Program-made: the position numbers and the translations under genes | Notes under the pieces: generated by a model | What the model was told of the DNA's origin: nothing | The model's input: only the letters and a program-made list of their open reading frames with translations | The model's database searches: none | Origin: Escherichia coli | Lineage (GTDB): Bacteria; Pseudomonadota; Gammaproteobacteria; Enterobacterales; Enterobacteriaceae | NCBI RefSeq assembly: GCF_003334355.1 | Contig: NZ_QOWP01000088.1 | Length of the DNA: 1,403 nucleotides | Strand: one strand, 5' to 3' | Shown here: positions 1,114 through 1,373 of the stretch, one piece after another | Layout: the number at the start of each line of letters is the position of its first letter | Numbering within the stretch: the first letter of the stretch is position 1

Positions 1114-1373
1114 CACAAGGTCAGCCAATCTGACGAGGTGCTGAAAAAAAGTTAACGTCCTGGTAGGTGCAGGTGACTTCAGAAGATGGCAAAACAGGTA
1201 AGACCGCAGGCAGGATACACCGAGAGGTAACAAGGGCAAGTTAGCCCGTAGAGGATGATTGGTACCTGCCTGGCGGATTTCATCATGGTTCGGGATAAAA
1301 ATCCCATCAGAAACCGGATATATGGCTGCACCTACCCGTTTTATTACATAACTGAAGAAAGCATTGCATTCCG
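1114..1373 (+). ncRNA. Candidate bridge RNA / seekRNA of the IS110-family element; strand and exact ends uncertain
   Basis: Seen in sequence: no ORF in the track; 11-bp long-range helix 1162-1172 (GGTAGGTGCAG) with 1326-1336 (CTGCACCTACC); stem 1204-1214 with 1265-1276 (8 bp, one bulged G, then 3 bp) enclosing a 50-nt internal loop with a small hairpin 1234-1237/1244-1247; hairpin 1292-1296/1301-1305 with an AAAA loop; U-rich tract 1339-1345 after the 3' strand of the long-range helix. Established knowledge: IS1111-type elements encode the guide RNA in the right end. No clear sigma70 promoter was found. Confidence 0.45.

What the first reader, a model, noticed from the sequence alone, without database searches (positions are those of the whole stretch)
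1204..1276. Stem plus internal loop plus central hairpin: architecture resembling a programmable binding loop
The stem 1204-1214/1265-1276 encloses two single-stranded arms (1215-1233 and 1248-1264) separated by a small hairpin (GGGC / AAGUUA / GCCC, 1234-1247). Both arms contain AGAGG (1223-1227 and 1250-1254). In characterised bridge RNAs each binding loop carries two guides on either side of a small hairpin, and both guides cover the shared core. The 5' arm is the one complementary to the right terminus. The 3' arm (GTAGAGGATGATTGGTA) has no convincing match inside the window and may specify the target site.
Basis: partly seen in the sequence, partly recalled or inferred. Interest (0 to 1): 0.55.

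Follow-up and report, generated by a model that had tools for sequence, protein, structure and literature searches.

The report
Target-binding loop of ISEc81 guide RNA
The stem-loop at 1204-1276 is the part of the guide RNA (seekRNA or bridge RNA) of the E. coli insertion sequence ISEc81 that reads the DNA site where the element inserts; this kind of RNA was described in 2024, so the finding is correct but ordinary.

Summary
The outer stem 1204-1214/1265-1276, the two arms and the GGGC/GCCC hairpin fold as described (z = -4.6). Covariation supports them in 12 close and 50 distant relatives.

The window is ISEc81, an IS1111-group element. Its transposase is 98% identical to the ISfinder ISEc81 protein. 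The structure lies in the long non-coding region 3' of the transposase gene, which is where IS1111 seekRNAs and bridge RNAs are encoded.

- **Right terminus.** Empty sites show that window 1387-1403 is flanking target DNA, not IS. The 5' arm (GAGGUAACA, 1224-1232) is therefore a target guide that pairs with the top strand of the right half-site, TGTTACCTC.
- **3' arm.** It matches the left half-site plus the core, AGGG-AT-G. The match is 5 nt contiguous, or 7 nt if A1252 is bulged.
- **AGAGG repeat.** It is coincidental. The shared core is the AT dinucleotide, covered by the 3' ends of both guides.

Guides track flanks across about 40 related elements. Donor-end guides lie just downstream, at 1277-1283 and 1318-1324.

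The mechanism is already known. Durrant et al. already list ISEc81 as having a predicted bridge RNA in its right end.

The parts
1..2 (+). Core dinucleotide AT at the left junction. It is shared between target and donor.
   Evidence: The empty site reads ACAGGG-AT-GTTACC and the occupied site reads ACAGGG-AT-AATGAG...CCATAT-AT-GTTACC. In relatives the same two positions vary as AT, AC or AG at either junction.
3..19 (+). IS left end, with the subterminal inverted repeat ATGGACGCTCC at 9-19.
   Evidence: It is the inverted repeat of 1374-1384. The left end is conserved in all relatives.
4..10 (+). ATGAGAT, the left-end sequence paired by the 5' donor guide (inferred).
   Evidence: It is complementary to AUUUCAU at 1277-1283, with one G-U pair. 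Covariation classes are ATGAAAT/AUUUCAU, ATGGAAT/AUUCCAU, ATGGGAT/AUCCCAU and GATGATGT/ACAUCAUC.
88..1113 (+). DEDD transposase gene, 341 aa, of ISEc81.
   Evidence: ORF. Homologues carry PF01548 and PF02371. It is 98% identical to the ISfinder ISEc81 protein printed in the supplement of PMC11187229.
1162..1172 (+). 5' strand of the long-range closing helix (GGUAGGUGCAG), which pairs with 1326-1336.
   Evidence: Predicted in the MFE and centroid folds. The window duplex is -23.3 kcal/mol. Relatives keep GGUA(R)UUGCA/UGCAAUACC and GAUUGCA/UGCAAUC.
1193..1203 (+). Conserved single-stranded leader AACAGGUAAGA, immediately 5' of the loop.
   Evidence: It is invariant or nearly so in 12 close relatives and conserved as RACAGGUMAGA in distant ones. 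Its role is unknown.
1204..1214 (+). Outer stem P1, 5' strand.
   Evidence: 99% of cells are paired, and 5 of 11 pairs change on both sides among close relatives.
1219..1223 (+). Inner stem P2, 5' strand (ACCGA). Only the first 3 bp are conserved across the family.
   Evidence: the 3-bp core is 97% paired and all 3 pairs covary in the distant set.
1224..1232 (+). T guide GAGGUAACA. It pairs with the top strand of the right target half-site, TGTTACCTC.
   Evidence: Its exact reverse complement is at 1388-1396, against 0.00 expected. The same 9-10 nt are the only right-flank sequence shared by the chromosomal and plasmid insertion sites. Guide-flank matrix: own 7.5 against foreign 3.06. Distant set: 20 of 33 own arms reach 7 nt or more, against 7% of foreign arms.
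1234..1247 (+). Central hairpin GGGC-AAGUUA-GCCC that separates the two guides.
   Evidence: 96-98% of cells are paired, and 3 of 4 pairs covary in the distant set.
1250..1257 (+). B guide AG(A)GGAUG. It has the same sequence as the top strand AGGG-AT-G, so it pairs with the bottom strand of the left half-site, the core and 1 nt beyond. A1252 is read as a bulge.
   Evidence: GGAUG is 5 nt contiguous, or 7 nt with a 1-nt bulge. The same bulge position fits L102, the Jejubacter element and the Citrobacter element, where AC(U)UAUUG matches the flank ACTATT-G. Without a bulge, the Pantoea arm ACGGAUGU matches CACGG-AT-GT and the Serratia arm AAGGAUG matches CAAGG-AT. Distant set: 21 of 42 own arms reach 7 nt or more, against 10% of foreign arms.
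1259..1263 (+). Inner stem P2, 3' strand (UUGGU).
1265..1276 (+). Outer stem P1, 3' strand, with G1272 bulged.
1277..1283 (+). 5' donor guide AUUUCAU (inferred). It pairs with the left-end top strand at 4-10.
   Evidence: The support is weaker because both partners are conserved: own mean 5.5 against 4.8 for foreign guides.
1287..1315 (+). Stem-loop between the donor guides: GGUU/AACC encloses the hairpin GGGAU-AAAA-AUCCC at 1292-1305.
   Evidence: Compensatory changes in relatives are GGUC/GACC and GGCC/GGCC, and the hairpin becomes GGGCGC/GCGCCC or GGGGAGCC/GGCUCCC.
1318..1324 (+). 3' donor guide AUAUAUG (inferred). It is identical to the right-end top strand at 1383-1389, so it would pair with the bottom strand.
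   Evidence: It covaries with the right-end sequence across relatives: ATGTATG, ATCTATG, ATGCATGG, ACACATGAC, ACAAATGAC, ATGTAAGA, ATATACGG. Own mean is 6.8 against 4.7 for foreign guides.
1326..1336 (+). 3' strand of the long-range closing helix (CUGCACCUACC).
1364..1369 (+). TTGCAT, the -35 half of the promoter that is completed only when the ends are joined in the circle.
   Evidence: Joining the right end to the left end gives TTGCAT-16 nt-TATAAT. The integrated copy has TATGTT instead.
1374..1386 (+). Right subterminal inverted repeat GGAGCGTCCAT (1374-1384) and the last IS bases, AT (1385-1386).
1387..1388 (+). Core dinucleotide AT at the right junction.
1389..1403 (+). Target DNA, not IS: the right half-site GTTACCTC followed by GCGCCCG from the stem of the host repeat.
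   Evidence: It is present and contiguous with the left flank in the empty sites L005 and L006. At the plasmid site the match to the window stops at 1396.

Best explanation
Region 1204-1276, together with the conserved leader 1193-1203, is the target-binding loop of the guide RNA of ISEc81. Siddiquee et al. call this RNA a seekRNA and Durrant et al. call it a bridge RNA. ISEc81 is an IS1111-group member of the IS110 family.

How it works:
- The RNA is read from the + strand of the 3' non-coding region. It is probably processed from the transposase transcript, which is driven by a promoter assembled at the circle junction.
- It folds into stem P1, a short stem P2 and an internal loop split by a 4-bp hairpin.
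- The 5' arm (T guide, GAGGUAACA) pairs with the top strand of the right half of the target, TGTTACCTC.
- The 3' arm (B guide, AG(A)GGAUG) pairs with the bottom strand of the left half plus the core, AGGG-AT-G.
- The two footprints overlap by 2 nt (TG, the second core base plus the next G) at the core AT where strands are exchanged.
- The DEDD transposase bound to this RNA therefore inserts the circularised element at ...ACAGGG-AT-GTTACCTC.... In E. coli chromosomes this site is the apical loop of a roughly 150-bp palindromic repeat.
- The same pairing with the flanks of an integrated copy would serve excision.
- Donor ends are read by two further guides just downstream (1277-1283 and 1318-1324). 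They sit in a multiloop closed by helix 1162-1172/1326-1336.

Shown here: the fold, its covariation, the true element boundaries, and guide-flank complementarity with covariation across relatives. Inferred: that the RNA is made, where its ends lie, that it binds the transposase, the bulge at A1252, and the donor-guide pairings.
For: **Context.**
- The ORF carries the DEDD_Tnp_IS110 and Transposase_20 domains.
- There are subterminal inverted repeats and a long non-coding region 3' of the gene.
- The protein is 98% identical to ISEc81.
- Durrant's supplementary table lists 'ISEc81 RE IS1111'.

**Fold.**
- z = -4.6.
- RNAalifold gives the same structure independently.
- Covariation in close relatives and distant relatives.
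- A covariance model built from the loop finds it on the + strand, about 100-200 nt 3' of the transposase gene, in 49 of 71 loci at 46-54% protein identity. It also finds it in a plasmid-borne element at about 52% identity.

**Boundaries.** Empty sites show that ATGTTACCTCGCGCCCG is target.

**Target reading in E. coli.**
- All chromosomal copies seen, at three loci, sit at the identical position of one repeat.
- The plasmid site shares only GGAAT|ATGTTACCTC with them.

**Guide-target covariation in relatives.**
- Serratia CGTCTGTA, Pectobacterium (C)GTATTTAC, ISEch3 ACGCGGCGAA and Pantoea CGTGTT-AC each match their own T arm.
- Two ISEch3 copies in one genome differ by one base in the guide, GCCGCG against GCGGCG, and by the complementary base in the flank.
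- The B arm tracks the left flank: AGGG, AAGG, ACGG, ACTATT.
- In the distant set, matches lie directly after the right end and directly before the left end.

**Agreement with experiment.** Siddiquee et al. (PMC11187229) found 82-96 nt seekRNAs for ISEc11, ISPa11 and ISKpn4. In these the top-strand match lies 5' of the bottom-strand match and the footprints overlap. The RNAs are required for circle formation and transposition, and they can be reprogrammed.
Against: - There is no expression or binding data for this element.
- No sigma-70-like promoter was found on the + strand of the non-coding region, so the RNA has to come from read-through or processing.
- The B guide of this element matches its target over only 5 contiguous nt, unless a bulge is assumed.
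- The left flank has A instead of G at position -1 in L001, L002 and L004, and this is unexplained.
- Some relatives match their present flank imperfectly: ISYen1 is shifted by 2 nt, L102 needs a 1-nt bulge, and the Citrobacter element matches only 6 nt.
- Rfam 15 has no family that matches, so membership rests on my own model and on the literature.
- The distant-set alignment was fitted to the model.
Confidence: 0.9

Rival explanations
1. The loop is the donor-binding loop. Its 5' arm would recognise the element's own right terminus, and the target would be read elsewhere.
For: Within the window the 5' arm is complementary to 1388-1396, which looks like the right tip of the element.
Against: - Empty sites carry ATGTTACCTC, so that sequence is target.
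- The arm changes with the flank in relatives, while the IS ends stay constant.
- Separate segments at 1277-1283 and 1318-1324 track the true IS ends.
Confidence: 0.03
2. It is a conserved structural RNA or DNA element with no guide role. Examples would be a stabiliser or terminator for the 3' end of the transposase mRNA, or a protein-binding hairpin. The flank complementarity would then be incidental.
For: - The stems and the leader are conserved.
- No independent promoter was found.
- No experiment has been done on this element.
Against: - No U-tract follows the stem, and the scan found no terminator-like site there.
- The unpaired arms are the variable parts, and they vary in step with the flanks in about 40 elements. 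A purely structural role does not predict this.
- The 9-nt match has a chance expectation of 0.00.
Confidence: 0.04
3. The region encodes a small protein on the minus strand. ORFs lie at 1179-1331 and 1075-1239, and gene callers call antisense ORFs over this region in several relatives.
For: ORFs of 50 and 54 aa. Antisense genes were called in L007, L103, L104 and L095.
Against: - Relatives differ by 1-nt indels in the arms and hairpin loop, and by indels of variable length in the second hairpin. No reading frame is kept.
- The substitution pattern is paired-column covariation that includes G-U pairs, which work only on the + strand RNA.
Confidence: 0.01

Closest known systems
seekRNA of ISEc11, and of ISPa11, ISKpn4 and ISPst6 (IS1111 family; Siddiquee et al. 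2024, PMC11187229)
   Same: - It is encoded in the non-coding region 3' of a DEDD transposase, in an element with subterminal inverted repeats.
- The unit is about 80-96 nt: a stem with an internal loop. The top-strand match lies 5' of the bottom-strand match, and the two footprints overlap in the target.
- A longer form carries additional structure.
- The flanks of the integrated copy are also read.
- A promoter is created at the circle junction.
- Relatives show natural reprogramming.
   Different: - It is a different element. The transposase is only 43% identical to TnpEc11.
- The target differs: ACAGGG-AT-GTTACCTC in the loop of a palindromic repeat, against GTGAAAATACTG for ISEc11.
- Nothing has been tested experimentally for ISEc81.
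- The B guide here appears to carry a bulged nucleotide.
IS621 bridge RNA (IS110 group; Durrant et al. 2024, PMC11208160; Hiraizumi et al. 2024, PMC11208158)
   Same: - A two-guide internal loop reads both strands of the target around a 2-nt core.
- A second set of guides reads the donor ends.
- The recombinase has DEDD and Tnp domains.
- The target lies in a repeated palindromic element.
   Different: - The RNA is in the right end, not the left end.
- The order of the guides is reversed: here the top-strand-pairing guide comes first.
- The donor guides sit in a multiloop around a stem-loop rather than in a simple internal loop.
- The subterminal inverted repeats are long.
- The core is A[T/C/G], not CT.
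Related ISfinder-named elements (ISYen1/IS1667, ISEch3) and a plasmid-borne relative of IS4321/IS5075 type
   Same: - ISEc81 is in the same cluster in Durrant's supplementary table.
- The non-coding regions align: same leader, same P1, P2 and hairpin architecture, same donor guides.
   Different: - The T guides and targets differ: ISYen1 GCGGCTC, ISEch3 ACGCGGCGAA, and the plasmid element TGAATAAA.
- Naming L116 as IS5075 rests on my memory of WP_001101446.1, not on a tool result.

Membership tests
IS1111-group seekRNA / bridge RNA, target-binding loop | Encoded in the long non-coding region downstream of a DEDD (PF01548 + PF02371) transposase, in an element with subterminal inverted repeats. 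| tested here: met
   ORF 88-1113, repeats at 9-19 and 1374-1384, and a non-coding region of about 270 nt 3' of the gene.
IS1111-group seekRNA / bridge RNA, target-binding loop | Stem, internal loop and small hairpin, conserved and supported by covariation. | tested here: met
   The covariance model hits 49 of 71 distant loci on the + strand, 3' of the transposase gene.
IS1111-group seekRNA / bridge RNA, target-binding loop | The 5' arm is complementary to the top strand of the target, immediately right of the insertion point. | tested here: met
   GAGGUAACA against TGTTACCTC, 9 of 9, starting at the second core base. Relatives are covered.
IS1111-group seekRNA / bridge RNA, target-binding loop | The 3' arm is complementary to the bottom strand left of the insertion point, and its footprint overlaps that of the 5' arm. 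| tested here: met
   GGAUG is contiguous, or AG(A)GGAUG with one bulge, against AGGG-AT-G. The overlap with the T footprint is TG. This is weaker than in relatives, which reach 7-8 nt contiguous in Pectobacterium, Pantoea, ISEch3 and ISYen1.
IS1111-group seekRNA / bridge RNA, target-binding loop | Guides change with the target among related elements while the stems are kept (programmability). | tested here: met
   Matrix: own 7.5 against foreign 3.06. ISEch3 copies L094 and L096 differ at one guide base and at the matching flank base.
IS1111-group seekRNA / bridge RNA, target-binding loop | The RNA is produced, co-purifies with the transposase, and is required for circle formation and transposition. 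| not testable with these tools
   Shown only for ISEc11, ISPa11, ISKpn4, ISPst6 and ISEc21 in PMC11187229.
IS621-type bridge RNA (IS110 group) | The bridge RNA is encoded in the left end, upstream of the recombinase gene. | tested here: not met
   The left end is only 87 nt. The structure lies 3' of the gene.
IS621-type bridge RNA (IS110 group) | The guide that pairs with the bottom strand lies 5' of the guide that pairs with the top strand, and the donor-binding loop is a simple internal loop. | tested here: not met
   The order is reversed: the T guide is 5'. The donor guides flank a stem-loop in a multiloop. Durrant et al. note this arrangement for IS1111.
ISEc81 (ISfinder entry) | Transposase essentially identical to the ISfinder ISEc81 protein. 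| tested here: met
   335 of 341 residues are identical to the ISEc81 sequence printed in the supplement of PMC11187229. The DNA of the ISfinder entry itself was not available.
Any Rfam family | A match to a curated covariance model. | tested here: not met
   Rfam 15 gave only two chance-level hits, both elsewhere in the window.

The most novel reading that the evidence does not exclude
The ISEc81 subclade uses a B guide with an obligatory single-nucleotide bulge at a fixed position: A1252 here, U in the Jejubacter and Citrobacter elements. In addition, the family tolerates a mismatch between donor and target at the second core position, since AT, AC and AG are seen at the two junctions of single copies. 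If both hold, guide-target register and core identity are more flexible in IS1111 systems than the published design rules assume. This would matter for off-target prediction and for reprogramming.
Probability: 0.35. Interest if true: 0.35.

Novelty: already known. Interest (0 to 1): 0.2.

Why it matters
The result assigns a function, base by base, to the non-coding tail of a catalogued E. coli insertion sequence. It explains why ISEc81 is found only in the loop of one palindromic repeat.

It also shows that the window, and probably the database boundary it derives from, carries 15-17 nt of target DNA at its right end. That kind of boundary error can make a target guide look like a donor guide.

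For the field it is confirmatory. It adds about 40 natural guide-target pairs, including a single-base guide and target switch between two ISEch3 copies in one genome. These support the published seekRNA and bridge RNA model for IS1111 elements.

Tried and rejected
- **Rfam.** A scan of the whole window at E <= 10 gave only chance-level hits (mir-611, NiCo riboswitch), both outside the region.
- **Related loci.** I fetched the close relatives one at a time with the look-up of encoding contigs.
- **ISEc11 DNA.** I looked for it so that I could align the experimentally mapped seekRNA. The weaker plasmid hits (H24, H26) turned out to be decayed ISEc81-like copies. A protein search of plasmids did not single out ISEc11. 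Homology to the ISEc11 RNA is therefore argued from architecture and from the paper, not from an alignment.
- **Name of the host repeat.** I tried to name the roughly 150-bp repeat (RSA or Box C?). The MG1655 record annotates nothing there and holds only half a copy. A paper search found nothing.
- **AGAGG as the shared core.** Rejected.
- **Promoter for the RNA.** None was found on the + strand of the non-coding region.
- **5' donor guide against the left end.** The own-versus-foreign test barely discriminates, 5.5 against 4.8, because both partners are conserved. I keep it only as an inference from the covariation classes.

Full report
**What the window is.**
- The 1403-nt window carries one long ORF, 88-1113 on the + strand, 341 aa.
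- Homologues of this ORF all carry the DEDD_Tnp_IS110 (PF01548) and Transposase_20 (PF02371) domains.
- An 11-bp subterminal inverted repeat is present: ATGGACGCTCC at 9-19 and GGAGCGTCCAT at 1374-1384. The long non-coding region lies 3' of the gene.
- The protein is 335/341 identical to the ISfinder ISEc81 transposase printed in the supplement of Siddiquee et al. 2024. It is 43% identical to TnpEc11.
- The window matches 180 of 5426 complete E. coli genomes, at 99% or more in nearly all of them, with a median of 2 places per genome.
- The element is therefore ISEc81, an IS1111-group member of the IS110 family.

**Checking the observation.**
- RNAfold of 1204-1276 returns the outer stem 1204-1214/1265-1276 with G1272 bulged, the hairpin 1234-1237/1244-1247, and an extra inner stem 1219-1223/1259-1263. 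The energy is -31.1 kcal/mol, z = -4.62, and 0 of 200 shuffles fold as well.
- I collected the homologous non-coding region from 11 relatives at 63-88% protein identity. They are L007, L102, ISYen1, ISEch3 (two copies), and elements from Serratia, Pectobacterium, Acerihabitans, Pantoea, Jejubacter and Citrobacter.
- On their alignment the structure is 94% paired. Ten of 20 pairs change on both sides, no shuffle out of 500 reaches this, and sliding the partners drops pairing to 27-48%.
- RNAalifold, given no structure, returns the identical fold.
- A covariance model of the loop finds it in 49 of 71 loci whose transposases are only 46-54% identical. The hits are always on the + strand, about 100-200 nt 3' of the gene. 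There 16 of 18 pairs covary (this alignment is fitted to the model).
- G-U pairs in the helices fix the strand as +.

**Where the element really ends.**
- Occupied chromosomal sites read ...GCGTTTTACAGG(G/A)|ATAATGAG...GTCCATAT|ATGTTACCTCGCGCCCG....
- Empty sites in other strains and at another locus read ...GCGTTTTACAGGGATGTTACCTCGCGCCCG....
- So the insertion is ACAGGG-AT-[AATGAG...CCATAT-AT]-GTTACCTC, with no duplication and an ambiguous AT core.
- Window 1389-1403, and one of the two AT copies, is host DNA.
- At a plasmid site the similarity to the window stops at 1396.
- Siddiquee et al. note that ISfinder entries of this family sometimes include target bases. The window shows that kind of boundary.

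**What the two arms read.**
- The 5' arm, GAGGUAACA at 1224-1232, is the exact reverse complement of TGTTACCTC at 1388-1396. That 9-mer occurs nowhere else in the window, against 0.00 expected.
- Because 1388-1396 is target, this arm is the top-strand guide (T).
- All chromosomal copies I fetched, at yegH-asmA, dusC-yohP and ybaP-copA, sit at the same position of the same repeat. The plasmid site shares with them only GGAAT on the left and ATGTTACCTC on the right.
- The 3' arm, GUAGAGGAUGAUU, carries GGAUG, which equals the top strand GG-AT-G across the junction. If A1252 is bulged, the match is AG-GGAUG = AGGG-AT-G, 7 nt.
- The bulge reading is supported by the other three elements with a 13-nt arm. 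L102 and the Jejubacter element lie in CAGGG-AT sites. The Citrobacter arm AC(U)UAUUG lies next to a flank reading ACTATT-G, with the extra base at the same position.
- The T and B footprints overlap on TG, so both guides cover the core from their 3' ends.
- The AGAGG shared by the arms is not that core. It is no more frequent than chance, and no relative has it in both arms.

**Guide-target covariation.**

T arm against own right flank, in a fixed register counted from the right-end sequence ...GTCCATAT:

| Element | Matching flank sequence | Length |
|---|---|---|
| Serratia | CGTCTGTA | 8 |
| Pectobacterium | (C)GTATTTAC | 8-9 |
| Acerihabitans | GTATTCAC | 8 |
| Pantoea | CGTGTT-AC | 8 of 9 |
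| ISEch3 | ACGCGGCGAA | 10 |

- The own-flank runs average 7.5 nt. Arms of other families tested on the same flanks average 3.06 nt.
- Two ISEch3 copies in the Dickeya genome CP002038.1 differ at one guide base, GUUCGCCGCGU against GUUCGCGGCGU. Their flanks differ at the complementary base, ACGCGGCGAA against ACGCCGCGAA.
- The B arm tracks the left flank in the same way: AGGGAUGU with ACAGGG-AT-GT in Pectobacterium, ACGGAUGU with CACGG-AT-GT in Pantoea, and AAGGAUG with CAAGG-AT in Serratia.
- In the distant set I ran a boundary-free test. The reverse complement of an element's own T arm matches 7 nt or more downstream in 20 of 33 loci, against 7% for foreign arms. Its own B arm matches 7 nt or more upstream in 21 of 42 loci, against 10%.
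- Those matches lie directly after the right end (gggcgtccatgta|TGTACCAG) and directly before the left end (TAAAAGT|aatggaatggacgcc).
- A plasmid-borne element at about 52% identity behaves the same way: TGAATAAA after its right end and GCTTTGTT before its left end.

**The rest of the RNA.**
- Immediately 3' of the loop, AUUUCAU (1277-1283) is complementary to the left end, ATGAGAT (4-10), with one G-U pair.
- In relatives this pair appears as AUUUCAU/ATGAAAT, AUUCCAU/ATGGAAT, AUCCCAU/ATGGGAT and ACAUCAUC/GATGATGT.
- After a stem-loop at 1287-1315, whose stems show compensatory changes, AUAUAUG (1318-1324) is identical to the right-end top strand at 1383-1389.
- That segment covaries with the right end across relatives (ATGTATG, ATCTATG, ATGCATGG, ACACATGAC, ACAAATGAC and others). 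The own mean is 6.8 against 4.7 for foreign guides.
- A long-range helix, 1162-1172/1326-1336, closes the whole unit.
- This matches Durrant et al.'s remark that many IS1111 bridge RNAs have their donor-binding nucleotides in a multiloop.
- I hold these donor assignments as inference.
- No sigma-70-like promoter lies on the + strand of the non-coding region. Joining the ends creates TTGCAT-16-TATAAT. The RNA is therefore probably processed from the transposase transcript, as proposed for ISEc11.

**Comparison with what is known.**
- Siddiquee et al. showed experimentally that IS1111 elements make an 82-96 nt seekRNA from the 3' non-coding region. It carries a top-strand match 5' of a bottom-strand match with overlapping footprints. 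It is needed for circle formation and insertion, and it can be reprogrammed.
- Durrant et al. predicted bridge RNAs in the right end of 93% of IS1111 elements. Their supplementary table lists 'ISEc81 RE IS1111'.
- The structure here meets every sequence-level criterion of that class. It does not meet the layout criteria of the IS621-type bridge RNA: left-end location, guide order, and a simple donor loop.
- It works like both systems and belongs to the IS1111 seekRNA / bridge RNA class.

**Verdict.** The arm assignment and the core need correcting. The kind of system is already described, and this element is already catalogued as having such an RNA. What this analysis adds is the base-level assignment of the ISEc81 guides, its target (the loop of a palindromic repeat), the corrected right boundary, and some natural-variation details: the bulged B guide, the core variants, and the single-base guide and target switch in ISEch3.

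Noticed in passing
window 1387-1403: The last 15-17 nt of the window are host target DNA, not IS. Empty sites contain ATGTTACCTCGCGCCCG contiguous with the left flank. The window boundary, probably taken from a database entry for ISEc81, overshoots the right end.
   Followed up: yes
window 1364-1386 joined to 1-5: Circularisation would create a promoter, TTGCAT-16 nt-TATAAT, facing the transposase gene. The integrated copy has TATGTT in place of the -10 box.
   Followed up: yes
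L005 520-660; L006 385-540; flanks in L001, L003, L107: - The chromosomal target is the apical loop of a roughly 150-bp imperfect palindromic repeat (AATCGCCG...GGGCGCG-loop-CGCGCCC...CGGCGATTT).
- The repeat is present at a median of 3 places per E. coli genome. As single-stranded DNA it folds at -50 kcal/mol, z = -6.6.
- I could not name the repeat family. K-12 MG1655 has only its right half between yegH and asmA.
   Followed up: partly
L001 and L002 position 1500; L004 position 1500 (the base just left of the window start): The base immediately left of the core is A in three occupied sites (ACAGGA-AT, CCGGA-AT). It is G in the other occupied sites and in both empty sites. Whether this is a pre-existing SNP or a product of recombination is unexplained.
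   Followed up: no
L094, L095, L096, L099 (ISEch3); L091-L093 (Pectobacterium); L106; L008 against L009: - The second core base differs between the two junctions of single copies, for example left AT and right AC in L094.
- It also differs between copies (AT, AC, AG).
- This suggests that donor and target cores need not be identical at that position.
   Followed up: partly
L094 against L096 (Dickeya dadantii CP002038.1): Two ISEch3 copies in one genome differ by one base in the T guide. Each sits next to a flank carrying the complementary base. This is a natural single-base retargeting.
   Followed up: yes
window 1193-1203: The leader AACAGGUAAGA, just 5' of the loop, is almost invariant from E. 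coli to relatives at 46% identity (RACAGGUMAGA). Its role is unknown. It could be a processing site or a protein contact.
   Followed up: no
L004 and L112 (IncF plasmids); L113; L114: - Plasmid copies are decaying.
- L004 and L112 carry G1244T, which breaks a hairpin pair, and A1264G.
- L114 is a fragment with GGGC changed to GAGC and a mutated 3' donor guide.
- L113 has a degraded left end and gene.
   Followed up: partly
L007 1123-1392; L103 1728-2099; L095 1673-2143; window 1179-1331 (minus strand): Gene callers place antisense ORFs over the guide-RNA region in several relatives. Indels of 1 nt between relatives show that these are not conserved reading frames.
   Followed up: partly
L091 left flank, L092 left flank, L099 right flank: Uninterrupted copies of related palindromic target motifs, such as GCGCCAGGGATGGCGC, lie near some insertions in Pectobacterium and Dickeya. 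These IS apparently exploit families of related repeats that share CAGGG-AT-G.
   Followed up: no
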